A stretch of DNA of 38,679 nt from Chrysochromulina tobinii (taxonomy: Eukaryota). The notes beneath the pieces were generated by a model. That model was given only the letters and a program-made list of their open reading frames with translations, ran no database searches and was not told where the DNA came from. The position numbers and the translations under genes were made by a program. The DNA lies in NCBI GenBank assembly GCA_001275005.1, contig JWZX01003071.1, forward strand, positions 1-38,679, written 5' to 3'. Shown in pieces: positions 244-33,149 of this stretch (the stretch's first letter is position 1; each line of letters opens with the position of its first letter).

Positions 244-498
244 GTGTTTAGGGGCCAGGGTCCATACCCACCCTTAGTAAATGACAGGCCGGAGGCGCGG
301 TGACTGGTATTGCTAATTACGCGCGGTACAGTTACGAGTTATTTCTGATAGTGTTCGTGAAAGTTACGAAAGTATCGTATGTATGATTACACGTACTTAT
401 GATTGAATCGACTCTGCACAGCTAACGCACAGCGCTCACGGCTCACGCGAGAAACGCAGGGTTGCTTGTCACTCCCTATCCCTTCCTCGCCGCGCGCT

Positions 499-840
499 CA
501 CGCGAGCAACGGCGAGCCGCCGAGGCCGCCGCCGAGGCCGCCGCCGTTCCTCCCCCCTGGCTGTGACCGCCGTCGAAGCGCAGCCCAGCCGGCGCATCCA
601 CGACTCGTTGCTCTCGTGGAGGGCCTCCTTGGCACGCGGCCAGCCGCCTTGATGGCGCGCTTCTTAGCACGCGAGCAACGGCGAGCCGCCGGGGCCGCCG
701 CCGAGGCCGCCGCCGAGGCCGCCGCCGTTCCCCGGGCCAGAACCGCCGTCGAAGCGCAGCCGGCGCATCCACGACTCCATGCCCTCGTGGAAGGCCTCCT
801 TGGCACGCCGGACAGCCGCCTTGATGGCGCGCTTCTTTGC
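499..840. repeat. Tandem duplication of ~170 bp (499-667 and 668-840)
   Basis: Both copies run from CACGCGAGCAACGGCGAGCCGCCG to CAGCCGCCTTGATGGCGCGCTTCTT, with small indels. Confidence 0.9.
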
Positions 841-5415: not shown

Positions 5416-5756
5416 TTCACGGTGTTTATTCGCATAGAAGGCTCCCACAGAGAGCGGTCAACTCATTGAGAAAAAAGGCTTCCTCCCTCAAGGTGGCTTG
5501 CCTCCCAACACGCCCACGCAGCACAGCTGCCGCGAGAGGCTGGCAGCTAGCTGTTCGTGGTTCGAGTGCCACCTTAGCCGGCCGACACCAGCCGCTGCGC
5601 GCCCGCCCCGCGGCTATTGCCTTGCAGCGCTCCCCTGCTCTCCCTATAGCAAGGAGCTCAGCCCGACCTCCATCCACTCATGAGCTCAGCCCCTTCCATT
5701 GTTCGTGTTGCAGGCTCTTCGAGGGCGCTTCAGTAGTGGCGGTGAGTGCGCTGCGC

Positions 5757-8700
5757 ATGCCGGCGGTCAAGGAAGGGAGTGACCGCTCGGCCAAGGGCCA
5801 GTCGGCGGTCAAGGCGGCAAAGGCTGCGCCCGGGCTTGTCGCGGTGATCAAGGCCGATGTAAAGGCCGAGAAGTCGCCCAAGGATAATGCACTTCCCGCA
5901 GGCAGCGCTTCTCCCAAGGTCGCCAGGAAAGAGGTGAAGCCGGCCGAGCACAATCAGGGGAGCGATCGAAAGGGAGCGGCTGATAAGGGCGGGCAAGGGA
6001 CTGGGCGGAAAGCCGAGGCCGTCAGCGGGAAGCCGAAGCCGACGGGCAGTGCCCTGGGTGGCATTGCTCTGGGTGGCCTGCCGAAGGCCGGGCCGCTGCC
6101 GCCGATGTCGCCCCAAGCGGCCCCCGAGCCGGTGCGCACAACGGCCGGCCCCAGGGTCGACTATTACAGCGCGGAGCTGCTCAGCCGACAGCCGCTCGCG
6201 GCAGCGGCGCGCGAAGCCCTTTACCGCAAGTGCGGCAAGAAGGACAAGGACGTGTGCTACACGCGCAACGAGCAGCATCGGCCGAGCGGCGTCGAAGACG
6301 GCAAACCCTCGCGCCACGAGCGCGTTCCGCCGGGCAAGATCGTGCTCATGTTTAATTGCGCGCGGTCGAGCTTCGAGTTGACGCACGGTGATGTGGCGAC
6401 CTTGCCCGATTCGGAGACCATCGACCTGCGCGCGCTCACGAGCGGCGCGGCGCTCGGGCGCATCAAGATTTCGCCCGAGAAGGGGACCCCCATAGAAGAT
6501 CGTATCGATTGCCCCAATGAGTGGCGTGTGGGGGCCGAGCATGGCCTGGTGCACGATGGACTCCAGTCAGACGGGAGCCTCGAGGTGCGTATCGACTGGC
6601 GCGATCACGATGGCGATTCGCACGTGGCGCTGCTCCGTTTCAACCCTTGGCTCGCGTACGGCTGCGGCGAGGGCGCGCGCCTCGCCATGCGCAAGCCCGG
6701 GATGCTCGAGGGCACAGCCGCGACGGTGCAGCGCACGCTGCGCGACGACTCGGTCGTCGTGCGCCGCGACGGTGTGGCGATGGGAGAGGTGACCGTCGAC
6801 CCGACGCCATTCACGGTGGTGAAGGCATTGAACCCACGGCATGCGCCGGGCACGCGGCTACTGTTCGTGCATGACGGTGCCTCCGTCGATGCGCTTGTCG
6901 AGCCCTGGCACGAGAAGGAGATCGATATCAAGGAGGGCTCGCGCCACAATTTAGCAGTGCAGAGTCGCCTCATGTCGGGTTGGGTGACCATGTCCACCAA
7001 AGATGGCATCGACAACCTCAAGCGTGTGGAGGAGGGCGGCGAGGGCGACGTGCCAGGCGAGGAGAATGTGGTGTACGTTCTCTGCTCGGCGAAGCCTCTC
7101 GCCCTACGAGCCGGGTGCGACCCTCTGAACAGCGAGAAGTGCGGCACGCTCATGCCCAAGACGCCGTGCCGCGTTCTAGAGAAGCGCGAGACGGAGGAGT
7201 TTGGGCTGCGCGCGTACATCTCATCGCTCCCTGGCATGGTGGTCTCGCTCTGCGCGGCGCTCAACGAGTTCAACCACGCGGTGCAGCGCTTCCCCTCAGT
7301 GTCCGAGTACGAGGCAGCGCGTGCCAATTATTTAGAGGATATCGTGACACGTGAGGCGCTTGTCGAGGACGCGATCACGGGGAACAACCTGCGCATCAAG
7401 GACCAGACGCTGCACGTGTCGACCGGGACGGAGCAGCAGGACAACTCACGCATCCCGTCCGAGTGGAATGTGAGCGACGTACGTGACCTCGTGACGCTGC
7501 TGCTCCAAGCCTCGCCCAACCGTCACATGGGGTTGCACCCGGCACTGCCCGTGCTCGTGCGCGCCGGGCCGGGAACCGGCAAGACGTGGATGGCGAAGCA
7601 GGCGGTCTTCACGCTCGCCGATCGTCTGCTGCGCGGCGCGGGCGCCAACGACGGCATCCGGCTCGTGCCGATTGTCGTCTTCGTGCAGCGCATCATCTAC
7701 CTGCTGCGCGAGGCGTCCGCCTCGAACCAAAGCAAGCATCAGTCTTTGCTCGGACGGTACATCGAGTCGATGTACAGCGGCAAAAAGTTCCAGTCGTGGT
7801 GTGACATGCTCATGCAGGCGTACGAGATGCGCGCGCTCATCGTGCTGCTCGACGGCGTCGACGAGGCCGCCGGTCTGCGCGAGCAGATCGACGAGTTTGT
7901 GCACAAGGACATCGTGCCCAGCGGCAATCGCGTGCTGGTGACCACTCGGCCTGAGGGCATCCTGCTCTCGTCTTACATCAAGACCTTTGTGGTGATGAAC
8001 CTGTGCCAGCTCACCAACGAGCAGCAGAGGCGCGTGATCAACATCCAGATGGAGGGCAACGAGTTCTTCGACCACCTGCTCTCGCTTGGCGAGGTGCGCA
8101 AGGGGCTGGACGACGCGTACAAGAAGATTGGCGCCGTCACGCGCGCCGACCTCGAAGCGTTGTGGGCTCCGAGTGGATGGCTTATGGCCGACTCGGACGA
8201 CTTCGACCCGGCGGAGCGCCAGAAGGACCAGACGGGTACGCGGGTAGTCGCCGAGAGCCACCGCGCCATCCGCTCGGCGTACCTCAAGGAGCTCGACGAC
8301 GGCATGCGCGAGGCCCGAGGCGCGAGCCGTGTGCCGCTGCTCGACCGCATCGACACTGCCATGGCCAAGGTGTCTGTAGGCGCGCAGGCCAAGGAGTTTG
8401 CGCAGGTGCTGCTCGCGGACGCGGGCGACACGTCGGGGGGCACGAAGCCGCCCTTCTCGGTCGCCCTCAAGCTGAGCAGCCTGTTGCAGGGGCGCAAGGA
8501 AGAGCTGCAGAAGCTCGAGGCAACCACCGATAAGAAGAAGAAGAAGGAGATCCAGGCGAAGGAGGCACTCGAGGTGAAGGCGGCCGAGGCGATGTGGAAG
8601 ACCATGTGCCAGCGCACGGACGAGATCTACATGGTCGCTGAGCACATGGAGCCCGTCTTCAAGAAGGTCGTCGCCAAGCTCGTGACCGAGGTCGGCAAAG

Positions 8701-19154: not shown

Positions 19155-19991
19155 TTAGGGCGCGCACGGGCACTCTTGTCGCATCCGTCGAACCGCGTGG
19201 TAGGTGTCGCAGCTCGGGTTGCACGAGTTGTGCCCCAGCTTGCGGCTGCTCTTGCTTAGCGCAGAGCCGTTACGAACGAGGTGGCACGGCAGGTGCACGT
19301 GCGGTGCCGCTGGTGCGTCCGCGTCCGCCGTCCACCACGCCCAGAGTGCTTGCTGCATGGTGGTGCCGCCGATGCGGTAGCCGATGAAGGCCTTGGTCGA
19401 CAGCCCCGCTACGTGCTCGTTGCACGAGGTGATGAACGCGCCACACCCGCGCCGCTCGAGCACGCCCGCCGCACGCAAGTCGGCTACAAAGGCATCGAGC
19501 ATGCGGTTGGTCTCGTCAACGTCCGCGTCGATCTGCTCCGAGATACACCAACAACTCGCAATCACTCGCAATCACTGGCAATCACTCGCCATCACTCGCC
19601 ATCACTCGTCATCACTCGTCATCACTCGCCGTCCCAGCGCAATCACTCGTCATCACTCGCAATCACGCAATCAATTGCCTGCTCCGAGGTACACCCGGCG
19701 GCGCCGTCCCAGCGACAGCGCGCGAAGCGACGCCACACATTGACCATCTGCCACGCGTCGATGGCCGAGTTGATGACGAAGACGGGCACGCGCAGTGCCG
19801 CCGCCGCGTGCCGCCCAAACAGGCATCGCCAGCGCTGCGCTTCCGGAAGGTCATGCCCGCAACCTCCCTCGAGCAGCGCTCCTGTGCAGTTGTGCAGCTC
19901 GCACATGCGTCGCATCTTAGAGACCCACGGCATGCAAGTGGTGGAGGAGGCGTGGCCGCGGCGGCACTCGGGCGCGTCGTCGGCGGCGTGC

Positions 19992-20062
<71 letters not shown>

Positions 20063-20809
20063 GAGCCGCCGGCCAAGGCGGATGTCGGTGCCAGTGTCCG
20101 GTGCCGCCTCAGGACCGGGCTCAGGCGATGCGCGGCCAGAGTCGCTGGCGACGGGTGCGGCGGAGCTGCCAGTGCTACCGAGAGCGCCCCGGCGGCTGCT
20201 TCTGCTCCGGGCGCTGCGCTGCTCCAGAAAGTAGCCCGAGAGGATCATCACCTTGAAGCGGCGCGCTCTTGGCAGCTCCGCTCGTAGCCACGGGGCCGCA
20301 TGCATCGCGGCGATGCCGCCGGCGGACCCACCGGTGAAGAGCACCTCGTCGGCGTCTCGCAGGCCCAGCTCGAGCGCCGCCGCAATCTGCGCTGCGAACA
20401 CGCGCCGGCCGCGCAAGTAGAGCAGCTTGCCGTCGGCCATCGTGATCGGCGTGGCACGGTCGCCAGCAAAGGAGGCGCCGTCGCAGTAGTGCAGATGCAG
20501 CCGATGAAAGCTGGCAAACCCAGGATTGACAGCATCATTCTCGTCCATCGGGCCGGCGTACGGCCAGAAGCTCTTCGGGGCGCTGCTCGTCGAGCCCTTG
20601 AAGCCACGCGCGCGGCTCTCGCAGCTATGCTGATCGTAGCACCAAGCGCCGCCGTCGAGAAAGATGAGCCAGGATCGCGCAGTGGCCGCCGAGTTAGCCG
20701 CCTGGTACCAGAAGCCAGGCACAGTGCCGTCGAGGCAGTAGGCGCCCAGCGCGAGCGCGCGGGAAGGTCCGACGCTATGGAAGGAGGTAGGGCGCGTCCC
20801 TCTGCCCAT
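19155..20809 (-). CDS. Pectin acetylesterase / Notum-family alpha/beta hydrolase, two exons (20809-19679, 19532-19155), ~502 aa
   Basis: CLDGT, FLDGGAWC, YCDGASFAG, GGSAGG nucleophile motif, D in NSAIDAWQ, FITSCNEH and terminal CNPSC; phase-0 GC-AG intron 19678-19533 joins ORFs 19643..20809 and 19155..19571. Confidence 0.88.
19533..19678 (-). other. GC-AG intron made largely of ~10-nt GAGTGATTGC/GAGTGATGAC repeats
   Basis: CAG|GCAATT donor and ...GGAGCAG| acceptor; removal restores the PAE reading frame. Confidence 0.8.
19994..20062. repeat. (CTG)23 microsatellite (one variant codon) encoding 23 Ser in the PAE gene
   Basis: Direct reading. Confidence 0.95.
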
Positions 20810-20870
20810 GGCGCCGCTCCTCTTTCCGACACCCCAGGGTCCGAAGGCACGTGCGCGCGCGCCGCGCGAC

Positions 20871-20932
20871 GAACTTGACGTGACGCGACTTGTTTGAACT
20901 TGAACTTGAACTTGTACTTGAACTTGACTTGA
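20871..20932. promoter_or_regulatory. (A)ACTTG repeat array between divergent PAE and AKR genes
   Basis: About 8 ACTTG units between ATGs at 20809(-) and 21011(+); same core as 1399-1435. Confidence 0.4.
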
Positions 20933-21010
20933 TTTTCACGCAGGCCAAACTTGCCGACGTCTCCGTGGCCTTCCTGCATCCCCGCGGCGTCCCCGGGAAG
21001 AATCTTCACC

Positions 21011-22372
21011 ATGTCGGTCATTCGCAAAACAGAGCTGACCAAGGTGAAGTTTGGTCGGAGTGACATGATGGTCACCGAGTGCTGCATTGGCACGATGACC
21101 TGGGGCTCATTCAACGGTAAGGAGGAGGAGGCGTTCGCGCAGCTCGACAAAGCGGTGGAGATGGGCGCAAACTTCTTTGACACCGCTGAGCTGTACCCCG
21201 TTGCCTTCAACTACGGCAAGACGACCGAGGCGTGGATGGGCAAGTGGCTGACCGCACGCACACGCGAGGGCAAGATCAAACGCCAGGACCTGTACATCGC
21301 GACCAAGTGCAACCCGTCGCGGATTGGTGGGCCCGACTGGATTGAAGGCGTGGATGGGCCAGGCAAAAACATGCCCGCCGGCTACTGCCACTCTTATGAA
21401 GCCGACATCCTCGAGAAGTCATGCCGCGCCTCGATCGAGCGCCTGTGCTGCGGCTACATCGACCTGTACCAGCTCCACTGGCCGACGCGCGACTGCCCCA
21501 TCTTTGGCTGCTTCTCGTTCTCGCCAGCCGGTGTCAACCGGCCGATGCCGCATGCAAATACGCTTGCGCCGGGCGAGCCGGGCTACGCCGTCTTCGAGCG
21601 CCAGCTGCTCGCGATCAAGCGGCTGCTCGACGCGGGTCTCATCAAGAATTGGGGCCTGAGCAACGAGAACGCCTTCGGCATCACGATGTTCTGCACACTC
21701 GCCGACAAGCTCGGCATGGCGCGTCCGGTCTCGTGCCAGAACGACTTCAGCCTGCTCAACCGCACGTACGAGAGCGACACCTGGGAGGCCGCCTACCGCT
21801 TCGGCGTCGTCGGGCTCCCGTATGGTTGCCTCGCAGGAGGCGTTCTGACGGGTAAGTACTTTGACGGCACCAAGTGGTCTCAGGCCGCTGCTGCCGACCG
21901 ACCGCTCGACCTCTGCCGTATGCGCAAGGAGAAGGACTTCCAGCCGCGGTACGGCATGCCCATGGCGATGCTCGCCGCGGCCGAGTACATCAAGCTCGCC
22001 GAGCAGTACGGAATCACGCCGACGGAGCTGGCGCTGTCGTGGGCGCGCCAGCGCCAGTGCAACACGTCGATCATTACCGGCACGACCACGGTGCTGCAGA
22101 TGGAGGAGTGCATCAACGCGTTCAAGATCGAGCTCCCCGAGGAGCTCATGAAGGCCGTCGACGTGCTGCACGAGCAGTACCGCCACCCGACGCAGTACTT
22201 TGTCGACAAGCCGGCCTGCATGGACGCCAAATGGCTCGGATCGGCCGCGCGCTCAGCCAAGGATCCGCAAGGCCGTCTCACGAGCGCGGCGCGCTCGCCG
22301 CTCGTCCGGGTGGCCGTCGCAGCCGCCGCCGCGGGTGCAGCCGTTGCGCTGCTCATCACGCGCCCTAAGTAG
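21011..22372 (+). CDS. Aldo-keto reductase (Tas-like) with C-terminal hydrophobic tail
   Basis: GTMTWG, FFDTAELY (D, Y), IATK, IDLYQLHWP, GLSNE, LAGGVLTGKY: complete D-Y-K-H tetrad; start MSVIRK at 21011. Confidence 0.93.
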   Translation: MSVIRKTELTKVKFGRSDMMVTECCIGTMTWGSFNGKEEEAFAQLDKAVEMGANFFDTAELYPVAFNYGKTTEAWMGKWLTARTREGKIKRQDLYIATKCNPSRIGGPDWIEGVDGPGKNMPAGYCHSYEADILEKSCRASIERLCCGYIDLYQLHWPTRDCPIFGCFSFSPAGVNRPMPHANTLAPGEPGYAVFERQLLAIKRLLDAGLIKNWGLSNENAFGITMFCTLADKLGMARPVSCQNDFSLLNRTYESDTWEAAYRFGVVGLPYGCLAGGVLTGKYFDGTKWSQAAAADRPLDLCRMRKEKDFQPRYGMPMAMLAAAEYIKLAEQYGITPTELALSWARQRQCNTSIITGTTTVLQMEECINAFKIELPEELMKAVDVLHEQYRHPTQYFVDKPACMDAKWLGSAARSAKDPQGRLTSAARSPLVRVAVAAAAAGAAVALLITRPK

Positions 22373-23229
22373 ACCACACGCCTTGCGGCAGCGAGCATTT
22401 CGCGAGCATGTGGGATGTGTGCCGAGGGGACGGGTGGGGGGGAGCGGGGCGAGCTGAGCAGCAGACCCACATGACGCATCAACGGGCGAGCGTAGGGTCC
22501 CTGGAGAGCCGCTTCGACTTAACTTAGGCTCTCTCTGAGAGCGCTATAGGGGCGTAGGGGGCCGTCGCTATCTCTGCTGCCGGTGCTGGTGCTGCAGGGA
22601 CTCTTCGTTCGCATCGCGCCTCTCCTAATCAGAAGCGCCGCTGGCTCCGAAGCTCGATCGCGCCCGCGTCGCAACTTGCATGTGTGCCGGGATCGCGCGC
22701 GTTCCGGCGCGACTTAAGCGCGGCTTCACCGTTTTTACCGGCGCGACGCGCGAGCAGCCGCGGCGCTCGCGTTCCGGGCGGATCGCGGATCCCGCTTCCC
22801 GGCGCGGCATCGCGGCTATCGACCGCATCTCGATAAGGTCGATTAACAATTTTTTCCCGTCCCGTCGCTCACGGCGGGCGCTCATCCCACCATAATCGGA
22901 AGAGCCCGAGAGAGCGAGTACTTAGTACTTGAGTGACCGAGGGGTGCGGAGCCGTTGAGACTGACAGGTGTGGTGAGCGCGGGGGGGACCGCGCGACGTG
23001 AAAGCGTGAAAAACAAACTGCGCTGAGAGACTCGGAGCCCATACGCGCCACACAGTCACCCAATACGAAAATTGTTTCGCCATCAAAATGTTGCAAATTT
23101 TGTCCCCGCTCCGCCTCTTTCACGGGAGAACGTCGCCACATTCGGACACGCCCCTGGGGTCCTGCTCTTGTGGTGCTTGGTGCCGCGGGCCCACAAAGGG
23201 CTTACCGTAGTTGGCGCGCTCTAGGCAGC

Positions 23230-26073
23230 ATGATGCCGCCGCCGACCGAACGATTTTGCACCGTGCTCATTAACTCGGACAAGGCCCCGCCTCCGAATGA
23301 GGAGGAGCTGCGGGAGGAGCTCGAGTCCAAGGATATTGAAAAGAAGGTGGTGGGCTTGAAGAAGCTGATCTCGCTGCTGTTGAACGGGGAGAGCATGCCC
23401 AAAATGCTCATGGTGGTCATTCGTTTTTGTGTCACTTGCGACGACCACAAGATCAAGAAGCTGCTTCTGATCTACTGGGAGGTTTGCGAGAAGCACGGAC
23501 CGGATGGCAAGCTTCTGCCAGAGATGATCCTCGTGACCAACGCAATCCGGAACGACCTCGTGCATCCGAGTGAGTGGGTCCGCGGGTGCACGCTTCGTTT
23601 CATGTGCAAGCTCAAGGAGGCCGAGATCCTCGAGCCGCTCATCCCCGTCGTCAAGAATAACCTCGAGCACCGCCATGCTTACGTGCGCCGGAACGCCGTG
23701 CTCGCCGTGTTCTTGATCTTCAAGAACTTTGAGCACATGATCCCCGACGGGCCCGAGCTGGTGGAGAAGGTGCTCCAGGCCGAGGCCGACCCCTCGTGCA
23801 AGCGCAATGCCTTCCTCATGCTCTTCTCGTGCGACCAAGAGCGAGCTGTCCACTTCCTTTCCAACAACCTCGATCAGGTCGCCAACTACAGCGACACGCT
23901 GCAGCTCGTCGTGCTTGAGCTGATCCGCAAGGTCGTCAAGTCCAACCCGCTCGATAAGTCCAAGTACGTGCGCTGCATCCTCACCCTCTTCAACTCCTCC
24001 TCGAGCGCGGTCGTGTATGAGTGCGCCTCGACGATGATTGCGCTCTCGTCCTCAGCTACCGCGATCAAGGCGGCGGCGAGCTCGTACACGCAGCTGCTCG
24101 CGACCCAATCCGATAACAACATCAAGCTGATCGTGCTGGAGCGCCTGCAGGACCTGAAGAAGCAGCACCCCAAAGTCCTCTCCGAGCTCATCATGGATAT
24201 CCTCCGCGCCCTCGCCTCGGCCAACCTCGACATCCGCAAGAAGACGCTCGACATCATCCTCGACCTCGTCACCCCGGCGACCATCCCGGAGGTGATGCAG
24301 GTGCTCAAGAAGGAGGTGGCCAAGACGGCCGGCGAGGACGGCGACAAGAGCGCCGAGTACCGCGCGATCCTCATCTCCTCCATTCACAAGTCAACGACCA
24401 AGTTCCCCGAAGCCGTCTCCACCGTCGTTCCCATCCTGATGGACTTTTTGGGCGACAGCAACCAGGCGTCGGCTGTCGACGTGATCCTGTACGTGCGCGA
24501 GATCGTCGAGACCTACCCACACCTGCGCGAGGCCACCATGCGCAAGCTGCTGCAGTCCTTCCCGACGATTCACTCCTCCCGAGTCGCGCGCGTCGCTCTC
24601 TGGCTGGTGGGCGAGTACTGCACCGAGGCGCAGGACGTGGCGCTCGCGTTCACCACGCTGAAGGAGGGGCTGGGCGAGCTGCCCTTTGCCTTGGAAGCCA
24701 AGGAAGAGGCGCCGGCTGCTGCCAAGCCGACGACGCAGCCAGTCGGCCGCCCAGTCGTCCTCAAGGACGGCACCTATGGGCATACATCGGCGGCGACGGA
24801 GGGGAGCGCCGGGGCCGTGCCCGACTCTGGCAAGCTGCGTGCGCTCTTGTGCGGGGGTGATTTCTTCCTCGCGACTGTTGTGGCGACGACGATGACGAAG
24901 CTCGCGCTGCGCACGCGGGCGCACGTGCCCGTCCGGACCGCCAATCTTGTCTGTGCGGATGTGCTCTTGATCTTGACTGGCCTCTTGCAGATGGGGCAGG
25001 CGGGGAAAGGCATCCCGCCGATCGATAAGGACTCGCACGAACGTATCACCATCTACCTTCAGATCCTGTCCAATCCTTCTGACGAGCTCAGCCAGCTTTG
25101 CCTTGTCGAGTGCCGCGAAGCTTTCTCGGCTATGCTGGCCGAGCGCCACGCGGCTGAAGCCGTGGACGCTCCCAAAGCGGACGCCGCACTCGAGGTGAAT
25201 CGACAGACCGACGACCTCATCTCCGTGCGGCAGCTCCGGGGACGTGCGCAAGATCCGACCTTTATGGATCTCGACGACGACGATGACGCGGCCTTTTCTA
25301 AGGCCACGGGCGGTGGGGCGAAGGAGGACTTTGCGGAGCGTCTCAAGCGAGTGACCCAGCTGACTGGTTTGTCGGACACGGTGTACGCGGAGGCGTACGT
25401 GACCGTACACTCGTACGACATCATGCTGGACCTGTTGCTGATCAACCAGTCCAAGGAGACCATGTACAACATGTGCCTCGAGCTGGCTACAGTGGGCGAT
25501 CTCAAGCTCTGCGACAGGCCCCAGAGCTACACGCTCAAAGCCGGCGAAAGCAAGCACATTAAGACGAACATCAAGGTGTCTTCCACCGAGACCGGCATCG
25601 TTTTTGGGACGATCGTCTACGACAACGCTCCTACCGGCAACACGCAGGATCGGAACTGCGTGGTGCTCAACGACATCCACATTGACATCATGGACTACAT
25701 CAATGCCGCGTCCTGCACCGACTTGGCGTTCCGTGCCATGTGGGCCGAGTTCGAATGGGAAAACAAGGTGGCCATCGACACGGACATCACCGACGTGCAT
25801 GTGTTCCTCGCACACCTGGTCACCTCGACGAAGATGAAGTGCCTCACTCCCGCGTCGGCGCTCGAGGGCGAGTCGCGCTTCCTCGCCGCCAATTTGTATG
25901 CAAAGTCCACCTTTGGAGAGGACGCCTTGGTCAACGTGTCGCTGGAGAAGCGCTCGGCTGGAAGCCTCTGTGGATACATTCGCATTCGCTCCAAGACGCA
26001 GGGCATCGCGCTCTCCCTCGGAGACAAGCTGACGCTCAAAATGAAGCGCAAGGGGGCAGGGGCAATGACCTGA
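23230..26073 (+). CDS. COPB1: Coatomer subunit beta (beta-COP / Sec26), intronless
   Basis: Conserved LLLIYWE, EMILVTNAIRNDLVHP, RGCTLRF, LEHRHAYVRRNA, QLTGLSDTVYAEAY, WAEFEWENKV, RIRSKTQGIALSLGDK. Confidence 0.97.
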   Translation: MMPPPTERFCTVLINSDKAPPPNEEELREELESKDIEKKVVGLKKLISLLLNGESMPKMLMVVIRFCVTCDDHKIKKLLLIYWEVCEKHGPDGKLLPEMILVTNAIRNDLVHPSEWVRGCTLRFMCKLKEAEILEPLIPVVKNNLEHRHAYVRRNAVLAVFLIFKNFEHMIPDGPELVEKVLQAEADPSCKRNAFLMLFSCDQERAVHFLSNNLDQVANYSDTLQLVVLELIRKVVKSNPLDKSKYVRCILTLFNSSSSAVVYECASTMIALSSSATAIKAAASSYTQLLATQSDNNIKLIVLERLQDLKKQHPKVLSELIMDILRALASANLDIRKKTLDIILDLVTPATIPEVMQVLKKEVAKTAGEDGDKSAEYRAILISSIHKSTTKFPEAVSTVVPILMDFLGDSNQASAVDVILYVREIVETYPHLREATMRKLLQSFPTIHSSRVARVALWLVGEYCTEAQDVALAFTTLKEGLGELPFALEAKEEAPAAAKPTTQPVGRPVVLKDGTYGHTSAATEGSAGAVPDSGKLRALLCGGDFFLATVVATTMTKLALRTRAHVPVRTANLVCADVLLILTGLLQMGQAGKGIPPIDKDSHERITIYLQILSNPSDELSQLCLVECREAFSAMLAERHAAEAVDAPKADAALEVNRQTDDLISVRQLRGRAQDPTFMDLDDDDDAAFSKATGGGAKEDFAERLKRVTQLTGLSDTVYAEAYVTVHSYDIMLDLLLINQSKETMYNMCLELATVGDLKLCDRPQSYTLKAGESKHIKTNIKVSSTETGIVFGTIVYDNAPTGNTQDRNCVVLNDIHIDIMDYINAASCTDLAFRAMWAEFEWENKVAIDTDITDVHVFLAHLVTSTKMKCLTPASALEGESRFLAANLYAKSTFGEDALVNVSLEKRSAGSLCGYIRIRSKTQGIALSLGDKLTLKMKRKGAGAMT

Positions 26074-26424
26074 TTTGCCTTGCGAACCAACACAGCGCAA
26101 CGTAGCACGGACGTGAAGCAATAGCGCTCCCATGTGCCACCGCACGGCCCGGGCCCTCGGGGCTGACATCACGCACACACGAGCAACGTTCTCGTTGTCG
26201 ACGGGTCAGGTTGGGAGCGCTTTTTTGCTTCGTAAACCCCTCGGAACTTGTGCTGCGCACTGGTTGGGTTTACCATTCTCGTGTACGCGTGAACTACACA
26301 GCCGGCAGGCCCCGAACCTTGCACCGTCCGCATGCTGCACTGTTGAAGATGTTTGTTGATGTTTGCCCCAAAAATGGAAACGGAAAGTCATCTTGCTCGC
26401 CATGCTGAGAGGGCGAGAGGGCGA

Positions 26425-27291
26425 ATGTCATCTTGCTCGCCATGCTGCAAGCCTTCCAAGTTCAACGTCGCGTTCTGGGTTATCATGACCTTTATTGGCG
26501 CCTGCCAAATCCTCGCATGCGCGCTTCAGTTGCGCTCGGCATCGGCCGGGCTCCATGATGATACCGTTTGCATTGTGGAGACCATCCACTTGCTCACTGC
26601 GCCGCCAGCCACATGCCCGGTGCCCGAAGTGGATGCATTGGACCAGATCTCACAGGAGTCTATCAAACAAGTCGTTATGGCCCTCGACTGGGGGGATGCC
26701 GCCATGATGGCACCCGGCGCCATTTATGTTGGCGTCCTTCTACTTGCGGTGCTCTTCGCAATCATTGCGCTCGGATGTACAGGGGAGTGTGCACCGACGA
26801 CAAGCAAGCTCTTCATCTTCCTCGGCTGGTTTGCGGCGGTGGTCGCATTCATCTTCTTCGCCATCTGCGCGGCAGTTGGCTCCGTGTCGAAGTTTCCGGA
26901 GGCGTCCGGCTTCTGGGACGCCACTATCGTCCAACCGTGCGACACGTCCACTGTGACCTTCAAGAGCGAGCTCAACAAAGCGAACGCCACCGTGCAGCAG
27001 TGCTTTCGGACTTCGCCCGATCCGCAGGTCGACTGCGCTCAAGCGAGCTCCCTCCTCGACTGCGCCGCCGCACAGATGGTCCTATTGAACCGCTTCTGCG
27101 GCTGCGCGACGCCGTTTCTGGTAATGACAGAGCCGCTCGCGGCGCCAGGGCTGTTGGGCGCGGGCGCGACTCTCCTCGGCCTCATATCCTCGCTCGGCCT
27201 GTGCTGCTCACTCGCGTGCTGCGGCTCCTTCACGCACGCCATCAAGGCCACGAAGGATTCCAGTGAAAAGACTCCACTCATCCGTAAGTAG
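26425..27291 (+). CDS. Cys-rich four-transmembrane protein (tetraspanin-like topology)
   Basis: Four hydrophobic segments (VAFWVIMTFIGACQILACAL; IYVGVLLLAVLFAIIALG; LFIFLGWFAAVVAFIFFAICAAVG; GLLGAGATLLGLISSLGLCC) and a Cys-containing loop between TM3 and TM4. A 21-bp direct repeat (26387-26407 / 26427-26447) overlaps the start. Confidence 0.65.
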   Translation: MSSCSPCCKPSKFNVAFWVIMTFIGACQILACALQLRSASAGLHDDTVCIVETIHLLTAPPATCPVPEVDALDQISQESIKQVVMALDWGDAAMMAPGAIYVGVLLLAVLFAIIALGCTGECAPTTSKLFIFLGWFAAVVAFIFFAICAAVGSVSKFPEASGFWDATIVQPCDTSTVTFKSELNKANATVQQCFRTSPDPQVDCAQASSLLDCAAAQMVLLNRFCGCATPFLVMTEPLAAPGLLGAGATLLGLISSLGLCCSLACCGSFTHAIKATKDSSEKTPLIRK

Positions 27292-27527
27292 CGACTACTC
27301 GAGCGACTCTTATAGCGTGTTTGCCGTCGACGGCAGAGGCGACAAGATGTGTCTCCATGGTACATGTAAAGCATAGCCGTATACACAGTACTCGTCGTAG
27401 CTCGTACTTTAGCTCGTGCATGTATACATTGTACATTACGCGTCTCTTTCGCTGCCACACCCTCAGGAGGTCGCGGCTAGTATCTCTCGCAGAGAGGCGC
27501 CGCCTCGCGTCGTGCTGTGATCGTATA

Positions 27528-30510
27528 TCATACCATGCTATCGCGAGGAGCGCGAGCGCCAAATGAAACCTGCTTCGTAATCTGCTTCGTAATGGCCCGC
27601 ACTCCCGCTCGGCTCGGCGAGCGCAGCACCAGCTCGTACACCTCGTCGATGCGCATCGGGAGCACGTATGGCTCTTGGAAGAAGGCGCGCGCCGCCTCGG
27701 TGCTCGCGCGGTCCGCGTCCGTGGCGAGGCGCACGGGCGCGTTGCACCGGTCATCCTTGAGCACGCCGCGGCTCGATGAGGCAAGCTCATCGTGCTGGGC
27801 ACTTAGTGCGCCGATCATAGAAGCTGTGGAAGCTGTGGTTGGGATCCCTAGGTCATGCACGATCCCTAGGTCCTGGTGCGCCTGCCGGACCCACTCGAGG
27901 CCTGCGCCGTAAAAAACGCGTCGGTACTGTTTCGTGCCAGCGAAGGCGGCGAAGTCCTGGAGATGGTACCGTTGTAGCTCTTCGGAGCTCATGGCAGGCA
28001 CATCATAGCTCATTGAGAGCACGTACCGGCCTTCGGACACGTCGAGCAGCGCCTTTTCGATGCCACCCGTGACCATGAACCTTGGCGTACAGCTCACGAG
28101 AGCCCACTGCGGATGCGCGTCTGCCACGTACGCGATTGCTCGTGTGAAGGTGTGAACAGTGCCGATGCCCGCTCGCACGCCGCGCTTGTCGACCCGGAGA
28201 GCGTGCGCGATCGCGTCGGCCAGACAGGCGGACGTGTCGTCGCGATCGATGTATCGTTCAGATGGACTCGTAGAACATGTAGTAGACGGACTCGTAGATG
28301 GACCATGGTGGGAGGAGTGAGAGGAGGGCTGAGAGGCGGCGGCTCCTTCCTCCTCCACCTGGTGCGATGCGGAAGCTCGAAGGCAACGGTTCCTTCGACT
28401 GGGAGGAGGAGGAGGAGGAGGTTCCTCCGAGTAGGGGACCTCCGAGGTGGTAGTTGCGGCATGCGTTGCGGTGGAGGCTTCGAAGCGTCTTCGAGCCACC
28501 GCGACGATACCCGGAGTGGCTGCGGGTGCAGCTGCGGGTGCAGCTGCGGGTGGAGCTGCGCTCATGCAGCGCGAGCGGCGCGGCGGAGGCGCCGGAGGAG
28601 GCGCGCACGAGGGCTGGTCCTTGAGCGGCCCTTGCGGGGATGAGGGCCGCGAACGACGCGGCGGCGGCGGCGGCGGGCGGGGGCGGCGGCGTCGGCGGCG
28701 GGATGGACTGCGAGAAGGCGGACTTGAACTCGTCGTAGTCGATCGAGCCGCTGGCAGAGGCGGTGCACGCATGCAGCACTGCCTGGATCGATGGGTCGTT
28801 TTGGCGGTCTTCGGAGATGAAGCCCCAGTGCTTGAGGGCACGTTCCAGCTGCTCTTTGCTGACCGTGCCGCTATTGTCCACGTCGATGTAACGGAAGGCG
28901 GCTTGCAAGCTGGCATCGATGCTGCTGCTCGAGGCAGCCGGTGGCGCACCTCCCATCCCTCCATCCAGCCTGCTGGGTGCGGAGGTGGAGTCTTGAGTCA
29001 GAATCTCACCCAGGTCGAAGGTAGGACTCAAGATTTCCCCACATCGGATGGCCAGCACACGATCGCCCATGCGTACGGCGCCCAGCCTGCTGCTTTCAAC
29101 GGAGGTGCCCGGAGAGGTGCCCGGAGAGGTGCCCTGCCCGTTGCCCACCGGAGCATGGCCGATGGAGAAGGAACGACGAGGCAGGACCCTGGCCGTGCCC
29201 GGCGTCTCATCATGAGCCTGCCCAGAGTGTGGGCTCGCTCTGGGTCGACACGCACTCGGGTCGACACGCACTCGGGAGAACGAGGGGACCCGGTGGCTCA
29301 GCCCGGCCCTCCACATCTGCTGTTGATGGGCGCCGAGCTCTGCAAGTTGTATCTGGGAAACGTCAGCGAGTTGTACCACTTTGGAGGTGCTAGGGACCCT
29401 GCTTGAGGTGGTGCTGGGGGAGGTGGGTGTGCTCGTGTTCGTCGTGGTGGCGCTGATGGCCTTGTGGGAGAGTTTCGGCTCCGGCGTTTCCGCCGACATC
29501 ATCTCAGGCACCGATCGGGCGTCTCCACTCACGGAAGAGAGCCCGTTCTCGGCCCAGGCTGGGGGCCTGTTCCGCTCGGCGGCAGCTAGTTGCGCCAATC
29601 TCCGTCTTCGACAGAAGCCGTACACAAAGAAGCGATAGAAGGCGAATACGAGGATCAACGCGATCATTCCAAACACGATCGTCGACAGGTGTTCTTGAGA
29701 GAAAGAGATCGAGGTAAGCGAGGACCTCGTAGGGGTGGAGGGGAGGAAAGGCGGCGAGGATGGCGGCGGCGAGGGAGGCGGCATGGGCGGTGGAGAGCTC
29801 ATCGGTGGTGAAAGAGGCGGTCGTGCGGGCAGAGGTGGCGGTGGCGGCAAGGGTTCGGGAGAGGGAGGCGGAGGAGGAGGCGCAGGAGGCGGCGAGGGCT
29901 CTGGGGTCAAGGGAGAGGGCGGCGGTGGCGGTGCGGGCGGTAGCAAGGGCCGCGGTGAGAAGGGTGGCAGCAGATTGATGTTCAGGCACTGTGTCGAGTG
30001 CGTCATCAAATGATTCACGTAGCTAGCGTACGCGGGTACCGATCGGCTATTGTTGAAGCGTGCGTTGATCGACACGCAAAACATTCGCCGCAATGCCCCG
30101 CCAAGCCAGGTACTGGTCGTCTGGGCCAGGCTGTTGTGATAGTACGCACCACTTGAGTCGACTTGGCAGCCTAGAAGACCTTGGTTGGATCTATTCGTCA
30201 CCGTGGTTGCCGATGAGGACGAATATAGGAACGCAACCTCCTCGCAAAAAGCAGGTCCCATTGTCATGCTCTCGCTCATTGGGCAGAATCCTGGCGTCGT
30301 GCACGCTCGGTGGCATCGCTCGCCCTGGCTTTCAAGCGTGGCACAGCTCACCTGAGCAGCAAGTGAAGACCATCCACTTGGATTCGCAGATGACCCTTGC
30401 TGCAGTTCCCAGCAGCGCCCCGCGGCGTTTGTGGTTGTGCAGCTGATTGCAAACGCCCCAAACCCCAAGCAATCAGCAACCACGACGACGACGAGAAGAT
30501 GCCATCGCAT
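27528..30510 (-). CDS. Receptor-like type I membrane protein: signal peptide, Cys-rich ectodomain, Pro-rich stalk, TM, EF-hand pair, C-terminal globular domain; apparent 1-nt frameshift at ~28676
   Basis: ORF 28258..30510 carries SP, TM (~29615-29683) and EF-hands (DVDNSGTVSKEQL, SASGSIDYDEF). Removing one G from the CGG run at 28675-28677 continues into the coding-like frame of ORF 27528..28964. Confidence 0.6.
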
Positions 30511-30779
30511 CGCACCGCGCGACCGTGGGCGACCCCGCCACCTCCCGAGCGCAACTTATCAAGTGTTCTTGGGTTTCTCGTTTCAACCGTTTCCGTTACA
30601 AGCATGCGAGTCTCGAATTTCTCTCGAGCTCCTCTTGCGTCTCCTCTCTCGTCATCTCTCTTGCCGCACCACGCCAGGCCATCGACACCCGACGACTTGA
30701 CGCGCTCCCGGCGCCTCTGTCCCTCCCCTTCTGCCGCGTCGTCTCAGCGCGCATGCATGCTTTCGCCGTCGGTGGAATC

Positions 30780-31928
30780 TTACCGCTGGTAGTCGGTGTC
30801 GATCGCCTTCTTGCGCATCGCCGAGTCCTGCCGAGCCATCTGAGCCTGCGCCTCATCTTCCCACACGGCGAGCTTCCCCTCTGCATGCGCCTCCTCCTCG
30901 ACCTGCTCGAGGTCCCACACGCTCACGGACGCCTGGTCCCACGCCATGTCCTGCGCCTGGCGCGCGGTGAGCTCCTTCCCGCCCGCTAGGTCGAGCGCAA
31001 TCGCCTCCGCCTCCTCCGCGATCTCCTCGAGCCGCTTGACGAACCCCGTGTCGTACTGCTCGTCGACGTTACCGAAACGTAGCTTGATGTCTTGGATGGC
31101 GGCGGCGAGCAGGCGTGGCGGTACGTCGGGCTCCGTAGACTTGGCATCCTCCTGCTCTTGCTTGCTCACCGTGCTCAGCAAGATGCCACTCGAGCCTTGC
31201 TTCGGCTTCATCTTCTCGCGCAGCAGCTTCTGACGCGCATCGGCGTCGTCCATGCGCAACAGCCGACGCAGCAGCGACACCTGCTTTGGAAGCTTTGTGT
31301 CCATCTCGGTCTGCACGCGCTGCTGCAGGCGTGACAGCACGCGCACCGCGCCGGCACCCGCCTCTCCAGCGGCCTCCGCCTGCTGCTTGTTGGCCTCGAG
31401 CAGCTGCATCAGCGCATCGTCGATCCGGCCCTGCCGTGCGAGCGCCGCGATCTTACCCTCCATCACAATGGGCGTTGGCGAGGTGACGAGGTCCTTCATC
31501 GCCTGCGCGGCCGCGGTCATGCGCTTGGCCATCTCGGAGTTGACCGCCGTCTTGATATCCCTGAGTCGCTCAATGTTCTCCTCGTTGCCCTGCCCAATCA
31601 ACTCCTCGAGCCGCTGCAGAAAGGCATAGTCGACCATCGCATAGTTGGCGCTGATCTGCGCCTCGAGGTTCTCGTTGGTGTTGAGCAGTGTCGAGAGCAT
31701 GACGCCATACGTCTCCGTCGACATGATTCGCCCAGATTCGGTCATTGCACTCATCCTCTCCGCCATCGCGGCCGAGCCATCCTCGGCCGGCGGCGCCACT
31801 GCATGGACGGCGGCGCGGGCTGCAACGGGCCGCGAGAGGCCGCTCGTGCAGTGCGGGCCAGCGGTGACGCACGAGTAGGCTGCCACACTCGGCAAGACGA
31901 GGAGCACGATCGGCATGAGCAGCGGCAT
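30780..31928 (-). CDS. Plastid-targeted helical protein, At4g37920/PRDA1-like
   Basis: Signal peptide MPLLMPIVLLVLPSVAAYS plus Ala/Arg-rich transit-like region; LVTSP..MEGKIAALARQGRIDDAL and PKQVSLLRRLLRMDD..R resemble that family (from memory). Confidence 0.65.
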   Translation of the reverse strand: MPLLMPIVLLVLPSVAAYSCVTAGPHCTSGLSRPVAARAAVHAVAPPAEDGSAAMAERMSAMTESGRIMSTETYGVMLSTLLNTNENLEAQISANYAMVDYAFLQRLEELIGQGNEENIERLRDIKTAVNSEMAKRMTAAAQAMKDLVTSPTPIVMEGKIAALARQGRIDDALMQLLEANKQQAEAAGEAGAGAVRVLSRLQQRVQTEMDTKLPKQVSLLRRLLRMDDADARQKLLREKMKPKQGSSGILLSTVSKQEQEDAKSTEPDVPPRLLAAAIQDIKLRFGNVDEQYDTGFVKRLEEIAEEAEAIALDLAGGKELTARQAQDMAWDQASVSVWDLEQVEEEAHAEGKLAVWEDEAQAQMARQDSAMRKKAIDTDYQR

Positions 31929-32246
31929 GGACTGGGGTGAGCGTCAACCCAGTCCGGCTCTGCTCTGGAGCTGGAGCGGGGTCTCACACACGAGGTCACG
32001 ACGGGGCGTGCGGTGTGAAGTTAAATCGCGTTACATGCAAGCGCGCCAGCGTCGAGCGCGCTTACATGACTGTGTGACATGCTGTGTGAATTTGAAACGG
32101 GTCAAGGATGTCAGCAGACAGCACAGCTTCAGCTTGTACTTACTGTATTTCCGGTGGTGCAGGAGGTAACAATCTTACAACTTACGACAAGACCACACGG
32201 ACACGGGCCACACAAACACCCCGGCTCACATCGCGACACGCGTGTA

Positions 32247-32338
32247 ACACGTGTTTGCTCAGACGGCGCCATTCCAGGCGGCTTAGGTATCCCCAGGCCT
32301 ATTTTGGATTTCAGTTGCCGTCGTCATACACCACGTGT
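32247..32338 (-). promoter_or_regulatory. SECIS element in the 3' UTR of the selenoprotein gene
   Basis: Minus strand: helix I ACACGTG/CACGTGT, AUGAC...UGAG quartet, helix II GACGGC/GCCGTC, AAA 11 nt above the quartet, apical TCCA/TGGA stem. Confidence 0.8.
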
Positions 32339-32402
32339 GAGGGGGGAAGGAAGTGCAGCCAAAGAGACACATCCCCTGAAGCAGGCAGCGCCCAAGATCG
32401 AT

Positions 32403-32873
32403 CTATAGCTCGGAGTGTGGAGGTGAAGCTTCTTGAACGAATCCTGGATCGATGTGAACGAATCCTGGATCGATGTGATCAGGAATCGCAGCTGGAGGAT
32501 CAGCCTGAAGTACAGAGTGCAAGGGGTGATAAGGGTGCCCTCCCCCAGGCTCGCCTGTTCCTGCCTTGCGCTGGATGCCATAGTCGGTCATCAGCCTGTG
32601 AAGCGCTTCCTGCGAATTGTACTGAGTCAGGTCGATCCGCTTCTTCTCGAGGCCAAGGTCGTCGTAAAGCACAAGGTCGGGGTTGTGGCCAGGAATGAAG
32701 TTGACCTCGATTTCATACGCGCTCACGCCGCCATTTCCATTGTCTTTGACGAACGCCTTCACCTCCGTAACCTTGTTGAGCTTTCACCCGGAGCAGGTCT
32801 CGATCCTTGCTTTCACACCATTCGCGACCACTGTGACGAGCAAAAACAGCAGTTGCACGATGATGGACCGCAT
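32403..32873 (-). CDS. SELENOM: Selenoprotein M (Sep15/SelM family), 156 aa with Sec at codon 30
   Basis: MRSIIVQLLFLLVTVVANG signal peptide; ARIETCSG-TGA(32786-32784)-KLNKVTEVKAFV matches the SelM CxxU region; IPGHNPDLVL; ER-retention-like HSEL; downstream SECIS. Confidence 0.9.
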
Positions 32874-33149
32874 GAGACGCTGGAGCTGCGGTCAGATCGC
32901 GAGTCGAGCAGCGACGTACGTCATGCTTCGGCGGGTATTGGGAACGAATGCGGATCCTTTCCATGGGCCACGGGTTAGCTCCTGGGCGGGGGCTTCTCGC
33001 CGAGTCTTGCGGCGCACAGGAGTGCTCAAGCATCACACGGATGGGCTCTGTTTGGTATGTGAATGTGTGACGATGACGTCCCCCCAACACCTCAGAAACC
33101 CGTTCCCACACTGCTCCCACAGACTACCCTCTCTTCGCGGGCCTTTTCT

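What the first reader, a model, noticed from the sequence alone, without database searches (positions are those of the whole stretch)
8610..9230. RelA/SpoT-like alarmone-synthetase domain nested inside the NACHT module
About 400 aa separate the end of the NACHT NBD (~8070) from HD1 (GIP, 9300), where NLRs normally have a short linker. The insert has RSH SYNTH-like motifs in order: KDPVRLYEK, DVVRCR, NKF..HFRS, EVEVH. Known small alarmone synthetases make (p)ppGpp or (p)ppApp or pyrophosphorylate tRNA. There is no plastid-targeting signal, so this is unlike plant chloroplast RSH. The GY->HF and EXQ->EVE changes suggest either altered chemistry or an inactive nucleotide-sensing or decoy domain.
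Basis: partly seen in the sequence, partly recalled or inferred. Interest (0 to 1): 0.8.

Follow-up and report, generated by a model that had tools for sequence, protein, structure and literature searches.

The report
Alarmone-synthetase fold inside algal NLRs
A giant immune-receptor-like (NLR) gene, likely from a haptophyte alga, carries a domain predicted to have the fold of bacterial alarmone-making (RelA/SpoT) enzymes, built into the middle of its nucleotide-switch module; the same arrangement runs through a large algal protein family and likely serves as the receptor's own, still untested, enzymatic output.

Summary
Confirmed and extended. All motifs lie in frame in one 3593-aa NACHT-LRR-Roc gene; the window's frameshift near 10414 is absent from four other assemblies. 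Pfam misses the insert, but its model (pLDDT 87) ranks RelA/SpoT synthetases first in the PDB (Z 13.7, top 11 rows; best other fold 7.9), and profile alignment agrees. The insert splits helical domain 1: NOD2 superposes across it. The family is large (500 hits at E<=1e-3), with named haptophyte and bolidophyte members; 50 of 52 testable members have the NBD upstream. The metal-binding Asp/Glu (167/171, 145/150) and a basic cluster are kept. The first Arg and the G-loop Tyr/His are changed family-wide; the window's clade also lost RxK and reads ExE. Best reading: an ATP-using pyrophosphotransferase-like output with a non-canonical acceptor (0.5); rival: a nucleotide-binding pseudo-enzyme (0.3). 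RelA_SpoT-NACHT fusions are known in fungi, N-terminally; I found no paper on the nested form. No earlier scan note matched this DNA.

The parts
5493..5713 (+). GT..AG intron (221 nt) upstream of the first ATG
   Evidence: L002 begins with 12 exact exon-1 bases joined to 5714; a contig of RNA-labelled run X4 has a 20-letter loose end at 5712 that matches the exon-1 end
5757..16540 (+). One giant CDS, 3593 aa in L001: low-complexity and beta-rich N-terminus, NACHT with RSH insert, LRR, Roc, likely COR, C-terminal domain
   Evidence: about 49-51% identical over most of its length to Chrysochromulina tobinii KOO31139.1; L001 vs L003: 63 synonymous, 18 non-synonymous codon changes
7554..8036 (+). 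NACHT nucleotide-binding domain; Walker A GPGTGKT at 7566, Walker B at 7842
   Evidence: Weak Pfam NACHT hit (E 0.013); paralogues pass the cut-off; model's best matches are NOD2, NLRC4, NLRP3
8016..8051 (+). First helix of HD1, just before the insert
   Evidence: Model helix H214-225; assignment to HD1 inferred from NACHT anatomy and the NOD2 superposition
8061..8579 (+). N-terminal half of the insert, mostly helical, fold unassigned, no conserved His-Asp pair
   Evidence: Present in 108 of 113 members with room; 16 of 168 positions at least 75% conserved; not folded alone
8580..9230 (+). RelA/SpoT SYNTH-fold domain
   Evidence: 43 of 225 positions at least 75% conserved, 25 of them polar or charged
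8751..8777 (+). Phosphate-binding motif equivalent: K999, R1003, K1007 (RelP K80, S84, K88); the Arg before it (RelP R78) is absent
   Evidence: K 148/163, R 150/166, K 151/168; Arg at the R78 position in 3 of 163; RelP roles from PMC5794853; mapping
8838..8855 (+). D1028 (Mg ligand, RelP D107), new R1031 (Gly/Ala in RSH), R1033 (RelP R112)
   Evidence: 167/171, 161/171, 138/171; mapping
9039..9092 (+). Acceptor side: RxKD-equivalent site (RxKN in the family, QLIN here) and G-loop equivalent DPTHFR
   Evidence: In register with RelA EFDD and GYQSIH; counts
9135..9149 (+). E1127 (Mg ligand, RelP E174), E1129 (Gln in RSH and most of the family), H1131
   Evidence: E 145/150; Q 116 and E 32 of 154; H 118/150
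9243..9347 (+). Rest of HD1 with the GIP motif at 9300
   Evidence: Model helices H623-641 and H644-657; follows the insert in 97 of 114 members with room
10411..10415 (+). Two extra bases in the window that shift the frame; likely an assembly error
   Evidence: Absent in L001-L004 and in runs X4, X6, X12 at full depth
10418..13090 (+). Leucine-rich repeats
   Evidence: Pfam LRR_8, LRR_4, LRR_6, LRR_14
13211..13579 (+). Roc GTPase domain, followed by a likely COR region
   Evidence: Pfam Roc E 4e-10; COR-B is only a weak hit in the orthologue, E 6e-5

Best explanation
The stretch 8580-9230 is a predicted RelA/SpoT synthetase-fold domain inserted into helical domain 1 of a NACHT switch in a giant algal NLR-Roco protein, and it likely works as the receptor's built-in enzymatic output, binding Mg-ATP and transferring pyrophosphate to an acceptor that is likely not plain GDP/GTP. 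Shown: the sequence, the single ORF, the constant nested position across the family and the residue conservation. Predicted: the fold and the split HD1. Inferred: the LRR or other flanking repeats sense a cue; the NACHT exchanges nucleotide and oligomerises; the insert, riding on NBD-HD1, is unmasked or clustered and becomes active. Also inferred: R1031 and R1003 replace the lost RelP R78 and R91, keeping five basic residues at the ATP site. In the wider family the RxKN site suggests a nucleotide acceptor. In the window's clade its loss suggests an acceptor without 5' phosphates, such as an RNA 3' end, as in tRNA-targeting toxSAS.
For: Fold: RSH first in three searches, hhalign 89-94% against controls of at most 2.6%. 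Nesting: NOD2 aligns over model residues 1..683 with 247 residues (Z 11.6, rmsd 3.8) while RelP aligns to 403..636 (Z 10.3, rmsd 3.9, 174 aligned). Both Mg ligands kept together in 136 of 144 at a median 33% identity to the window. K999/R1003/K1007 all kept in 139 of 163. Gln of ExQ in 100 of 108 and R/K of RxKN in 94 and 92 of 108 outside the window's clade. The NACHT+insert core is constant while flanks vary: LRRs in 14 of 31 scanned, plus WW, Kelch, F5/8, EF-hand, DUF285, ankyrin and decapeptide repeats. Walker A Lys intact in 47 of 48. A spliced contig holds the whole ORF with the insert unbroken (L002). Precedent: RelA_SpoT as a proposed NLR effector in fungi (PMC4986451, passages); tRNA-targeting FaRel2 has a smaller basic acceptor patch (PMC11782079, passages).
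Against: No activity was measured. The adenine-stacking Arg (RelP R78) is present in only 3 of 163 and the R91 position is never basic (0 of 172). The G-loop Tyr is Phe in 142 of 166; Tyr-to-Phe is the substitution used to impair toxSAS enzymes (PMC11782079). The G-loop His is lost (Leu 97/163). The window's clade also lacks the Gln that PMC9974481 calls catalytic (section 10) and lacks RxK (1 and 0 of 18). Identity to solved RSH is 10-15% and rmsd 2.5-4 A. The compensation idea rests on alignment spacing; side-chain geometry of the model could not be inspected. 13 of 163 members keep at most one of the three basic residues, so some copies decay. NLR-type activation is assumed by analogy.
Confidence: 0.5

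Rival explanations
1. The insert is a pseudo-synthetase: it binds a phosphorylated nucleotide (ATP, GTP or an alarmone from bacteria, prey or plastid) without turnover, and passes that signal through HD1 to the NACHT switch. This fits the window's own clade best.
For: Loss of the R78 and R91 equivalents, G-loop Tyr and His family-wide, and of Gln and RxK in the window's clade. HD1 adjoins the NACHT nucleotide pocket (established NLR anatomy, recalled). Pseudo-SYNTH regulatory domains exist (PMC9974481). The window's clade carries a long variable loop (48-135 residues between two motifs, against a median of 39).
Against: The known pseudo-SYNTH lost the Mg-binding Asp and most phosphate ligands; here Asp and Glu are the best conserved sites (167/171, 145/150), also in the window's clade (18 and 17 of 18). 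Many members show no other Pfam-recognised effector.
Confidence: 0.3
2. The insert is an ordinary (p)ppGpp synthetase with drifted motifs.
For: The best structural matches are RelP, RelQ and Rel; the family keeps RxKN in register with the RxKD motif linked to GTP preference (PMC3153485 passages).
Against: [quoted passage not shown] RelP, Rel and CapRel rows differ by Z 1.6 or less, so the fold does not pick the product.
Confidence: 0.1
3. The insert is an integrated decoy or a structural spacer with no nucleotide function.
For: It sits in an NLR, where integrated decoys occur (10.1101/2024.11.26.625400 mentions them, passage); some copies have degenerate motifs.
Against: It is not sporadic: 59 of 60 full modules carry a 300-480-residue insert at the same site (these were found through the insert, so NACHTs without it are not counted), and 25 of the 43 conserved positions are polar or charged.
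Confidence: 0.08
4. The arrangement is an artefact of assembly, an unspliced intron or a chance motif match.
For: The window does contain one frame error; Pfam, NCBIfam, PADLOC and PDB sequence searches find nothing for the insert.
Against: Same ORF in four assemblies, in a spliced contig, in genome-annotated haptophyte proteins and in EukProt/MMETSP entries; structural and profile controls.
Confidence: 0.02

Closest known systems
Fungal NLRs with an N-terminal RelA_SpoT domain (Dyrka et al. 2014, PMC4986451; Sordariales survey 10.1101/2024.11.26.625400)
   Same: An RSH synthetase-type domain and a NACHT in one eukaryotic protein, proposed as the effector (passages)
   Different: [quoted passage not shown] Here it is inside HD1, missed by Pfam, constant across an algal family and often followed by LRRs. 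The fungal domains were not fetched or compared.
Small alarmone synthetases RelP/RelQ (6FGK, 6EWZ, 5DED) and Rel SYNTH (8ACU)
   Same: Fold (Z 13.3-13.7), Asp/Glu metal ligands, K80/K88/R112 equivalents
   Different: 10-15% identity; R78, S84, R91, G-loop Tyr and His equivalents changed; embedded in a 3593-aa protein
toxSAS enzymes CapRel (7ZTB), Tas1 (6OX6), FaRel2
   Same: Fold (Z 12.1 and 11.7); RSH domains used as conflict effectors with non-guanosine acceptors
   Different: No antitoxin; those keep the first Arg and the G-loop Tyr (FaRel2 R64, Y128); activity here untested
Pseudo-SYNTH of Acinetobacter SpoT (7QPS, 7QPR; PMC9974481)
   Same: A degenerate SYNTH kept as a possible regulatory domain; fold match Z 11.8 and 8.9
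   Different: That domain lost the catalytic Asp and most phosphate ligands; these are kept here
Animal NACHT-LRR receptors (NOD2, NLRP3, NLRC4) and Roco proteins
   Same: NBD-HD1 superposes on NOD2; LRR-Roc order
   Different: A 390-residue insert in HD1; NACHT and Roc in one chain

Membership tests
RSH SYNTH superfamily (fold) | SYNTH alpha/beta nucleotidyltransferase fold closer to RSH than to other Pol-beta-like enzymes | tested here: met
   Predicted model; ranks 1-11 of 48,161 chains are RSH, Z 13.7-8.9, next 7.9
RSH SYNTH superfamily (fold) | Profile similarity with motifs in RSH order | tested here: met
   hhalign 89-94%, E 1e-7 to 2e-6 for a pairwise comparison; controls at most 2.6%
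Pfam RelA_SpoT PF04607 | HMM match | tested here: not met
   No hit for the window or 14 aligned members; none among the families shown for 31 paralogues
Canonical (p)ppGpp synthetases | Mg ligands Asp107 and Glu174 (RelP numbering) | tested here: met
   D1028 167/171, E1127 145/150; roles from PMC5794853
Canonical (p)ppGpp synthetases | Full ATP site R78, K80, S84, K88, R91, R112 | tested here: not met
   K80, K88, R112 equivalents kept; R78 in 3 of 163, S84 is Arg in 150 of 166, R91 basic in 0 of 172; 12 of 13 reference RSH show the R-x-K-x3-S pattern
Canonical (p)ppGpp synthetases | G-loop Tyr for the acceptor base | tested here: not met
   Phe here and in 142 of 166; Tyr in 7
Canonical (p)ppGpp synthetases | ExQ glutamine | tested here: not met
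   Glu in the window and 16 of 18 clade members; Gln in 100 of 108 other family members
Canonical (p)ppGpp synthetases | Synthesis of (p)ppGpp | not testable with these tools
   Needs an assay
Long RSH (plant/algal plastid Rsh, Rel) | N-terminal HD hydrolase domain and plastid targeting | tested here: inconclusive
   No conserved His-Asp pair in the insert's N-half and no Pfam HD hit, but the N-half was not folded alone and no targeting predictor was run
NACHT NLR | NBD with intact Walker A/B, HD1 GxP-like motif, C-terminal repeats | tested here: met
NACHT NLR | Ligand-induced oligomerisation and immune output | not testable with these tools
   Inferred by analogy only
Fungal RelA_SpoT-NACHT NLRs | RelA_SpoT domain N-terminal to NACHT | tested here: not met
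   The domain lies after Walker A/B and before GIP

The most novel reading that the evidence does not exclude
Haptophytes and other marine algae have an undescribed, widespread NLR class whose effector is inside the NACHT module: a divergent RSH enzyme that on activation makes a new nucleotide signal or pyrophosphorylates an RNA or protein target, with the window's clade (ExE, no RxK) having switched acceptor or chemistry. This would be alarmone-type chemistry used for innate immunity outside the plastid of eukaryotic phytoplankton.
Probability: 0.3. Interest if true: 0.9.

Novelty: new variant of a known kind. Interest (0 to 1): 0.72.

Why it matters
Antiviral and antibacterial mechanisms of microalgae are poorly known; NACHT, LRR and TIR genes are up in virus-recovered Emiliania cells (10.1101/2025.04.29.650402, passages). 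This family offers a concrete, assayable candidate output domain that standard annotation misses (public members are named only 'leucine rich repeat', 'nlrc3' or 'NACHT domain-containing'). It also departs from the effector-NBD-sensor layout by placing an enzyme fold inside HD1, and gives a natural series (RxKN/ExQ members against the ExE clade) for testing how RSH acceptor choice evolves.

Tried and rejected
Sequence-only searches gave no family for the insert: Pfam, PDB sequences (only nucleoside diphosphate kinase at E 1.6-1.7, rejected as chance), NCBIfam and PADLOC. No relative in viral contigs with one peptide pattern (24 stretches matched, 0 confirmed); prokaryotic genome contigs were not scanned, so the donor of the domain is open. 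Foldseek against viral models gave phage RelA/SpoT-like proteins at 11-16% identity only. ESM Atlas look-alikes are leads only: unnamed clusters with TPR or ankyrin domains and diatom-rich clusters (TM 0.73-0.79), then RelA_SpoT clusters. No whole genome is held, so paralogue number per genome is unknown. L001 vs L003 show no change at all over NBD and insert: uninformative for selection on the insert. The tree (FastTree, 126 of 177 family domains plus 13 RSH, 189 columns) joins family and RSH by a long branch (2.3) and says nothing on origin. The C-terminal domain looks ADP-ribosyltransferase-like by recalled motifs, but Pfam, PDB and NCBIfam gave no support. Short Prorocentrum and Pyramimonas fragments and one archaeal MAG label in member clusters were not counted as range evidence. 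Ten literature searches found no paper on an RSH domain nested in NACHT; I saw listings and keyword passages, one full section, no supplements, and subscription journals are not covered.

Full report
Observation. The reading frame from 5757 carries Walker A (7566), Walker B (7842), then KDPVRLYEK (8751), DVVRCR (8838), NKF (9048), HFRS (9075), EVEVH (9135) and GIP (9300). In the window this frame stops at 10418 and LRR-Roc continues in another frame. Four other assemblies of the locus lack two bases at 10411-10415 and give one ORF, 3593 aa from the ATG in L001; three RNA-labelled runs lack them too. L001 and L002 are 99.9% identical to the window and may not be independent of it; L003 and L004 are 98-99% identical. 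Between L001 and L003 the gene has 63 synonymous and 18 non-synonymous changes. L002 starts with a junction that skips a GT..AG intron at 5493-5713 and then runs through the whole ORF, insert included. The neighbours are eukaryotic (coatomer beta, kinesin, aldo-keto reductase) and the best named orthologue is Chrysochromulina tobinii KOO31139.1, so the source is inferred to be a haptophyte.

Fold. Sequence searches do not recognise the insert. A model of 8574-9236 from 83 sequences has pLDDT 87 and pTM 0.80. Foldseek ranks RelQ and RelP first (E 2.7e-5, TM about 0.5). VIA-align on Foldseek's candidates puts 29 RSH entries first (Z 13.7-9.5) before TdT (8.8). The unbiased search of 48,161 chains puts 11 RSH chains first (6FGK Z 13.7, rmsd 3.9, 155 aligned; 8ACU Z 13.5, rmsd 2.5, 142 aligned), best other fold 7.9. 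hhalign of the family against 13 bacterial RSH domains gives 89-94%; reversed and 20 shuffled controls give at most 2.6%.

Position. A model of 7377-9440 (45 sequences, pLDDT 88, pTM 0.81) matches NOD2, NLRC4 and NLRP3. NOD2 residues 217-505 superpose on model residues 1..683 with 247 aligned (Z 11.6, rmsd 3.8), and RelP superposes on 403..636. Helices flank the insert on both sides (8016-8051; 9243-9347), so the 390-residue insert splits HD1. It has an unassigned helical N-half (8061-8579) and the SYNTH domain.

Family. A profile of 14 sequences finds 500 proteins at E<=1e-3 and 265 at E<=1e-10 among 50%-identity representatives; only the best 150 were listed. Of 178 collected proteins with the domain, 50 of 52 with room upstream have the NBD, 108 of 113 the N-half, and 97 of 114 with room downstream have HD1 directly after; the insert is 300-480 residues in 59 of 60 full modules (profiles built from the same family, so this tests context, not detection). 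Named members: C. tobinii (two paralogues), Prymnesium parvum (two), P. polylepis and the bolidophyte Triparma laevis. Flanks vary: LRRs in 14 of 31 scanned, and WW, Kelch, F5/8, EF-hand, DUF285, ankyrin or decapeptide repeats.

Active site. RelP roles are from PMC5794853 (passages); the mapping is; counts are from 177 aligned domains. Kept: Mg ligands D107 (167/171) and E174 (145/150), K80 (148/163), K88 (151/168), R112 (138/171). Changed: R78 (Arg 3/163), S84 (Arg 150/166), R91 (basic 0/172), the small residue three after the Asp (Arg 161/171), G-loop Gly-Tyr (His 143/167, Phe 142/166) and the following His (Leu 97/163). The family has RxKN in register with RxKD/ExDD, the motif tied to GTP or GDP preference (PMC3153485, passage). 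The window's clade (18 sequences, support 0.98) keeps the ATP-side residues (17-18 of 18) but has lost R (1/18) and K (0/18) of RxKN, reads ExE (16/18) where others read ExQ (100/108), and has a longer loop.

Mechanism. I favour an enzymatic output (0.5): the most conserved sites are metal and phosphate ligands, the core is constant while sensor-like flanks vary, and two new arginines could stand in for the two lost ones (inference from spacing only). The acceptor side is remodelled, so plain (p)ppGpp synthesis is unlikely (0.1): the G-loop Tyr is critical in known synthetases and Tyr-to-Phe impairs toxSAS (PMC11782079, passages). The loss of RxK in the window's clade parallels the smaller basic acceptor patch of tRNA-targeting FaRel2. 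The main rival (0.3) is a nucleotide-binding pseudo-enzyme coupled to the NACHT switch; it fits the loss of the Gln called catalytic in PMC9974481 (section 10), but that pseudo-SYNTH lost the Asp that is kept here. Sensing, oligomerisation and immune role are inferred from NLR biology and untested.

Known and new. RelA_SpoT is a known, rare N-terminal domain of fungal NACHT NLRs (PMC4986451; 10.1101/2024.11.26.625400; 10.1101/2022.03.16.484565; PMC10197012; passages only). Divergent eukaryotic SAS are listed for fungi, Dictyostelium and diatoms (PMC3153485). Passages of 10.1101/2022.07.19.500537, PMC7159879, PMC10434055, 10.1101/575399 and 10.64898/2026.03.27.714854 showed nothing on a nested form. 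Ten searches found none; supplements were not read and could list such architectures. Earlier scan notes: none by sequence, place or a second word search; one note on an E. coli NACHT gene beside a separate RSH gene, not checked here.

Verdict. Real, a new variant of a known kind: an RSH-fold domain inside HD1 that defines a large, unannotated algal NLR family. It works like an RSH SYNTH domain in fold and metal site but fails three defining features of canonical (p)ppGpp synthetases. Interest 0.72.

Noticed in passing
window 15470-16510 (+): C-terminal domain with motifs (LRLFS, YWRG, GFLSLT, SFLSAFP) that I recall as ADP-ribosyltransferase-like; about 36% identical in L006 and L008; no Pfam, PDB or NCBIfam support.
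   Followed up: partly
window 5757-16540 (+): A NACHT NTPase and a Roc GTPase in one 3593-aa chain, also in C. tobinii KOO31139.1.
   Followed up: partly
window 10411-10415: Two-base insertion that breaks the gene only in this window; likely an assembly error. Single extra bases also at 16753 and 16801, downstream of the stop.
   Followed up: yes
window 6240-7376 (+): Conserved beta-rich N-terminal region without a family hit; shared with the window's clade and with the paralogue P0178; relatives L005, L006 and L008 carry extra repeats of a similar-looking unit upstream.
   Followed up: partly
window 8061-8579 (+): N-half of the insert has its own conserved polar residues (R781, D785, R821-Q822, G827, S840) and no assigned fold.
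   Followed up: partly
P0065, P0088, P0138, P0144, P0159, P0178 (tree): Neighbouring branches have lost the K/R/K basic motif together, suggesting inactive paralogues that could serve as natural controls.
   Followed up: no
L006 9500-10250: Short intron-like interruptions inside the insert that repeat flanking coding bases at their borders; L005 lacks them.
   Followed up: no
window 19646-35759: Housekeeping neighbours: pectinacetylesterase (19646-20935 -), aldo-keto reductase (20933-22369 +), coatomer beta (23002-26070 +), EF-hand protein (28261-30555 -), kinesin (33063-35759 +); no NLR cluster seen.
   Followed up: partly
ESM Atlas rows for P0023 241-420: Closest structural look-alikes are unnamed clusters with TPR or ankyrin repeats and diatom-rich clusters (TM 0.73-0.79), hinting at a wider unannotated RSH-like group in protists.
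   Followed up: no
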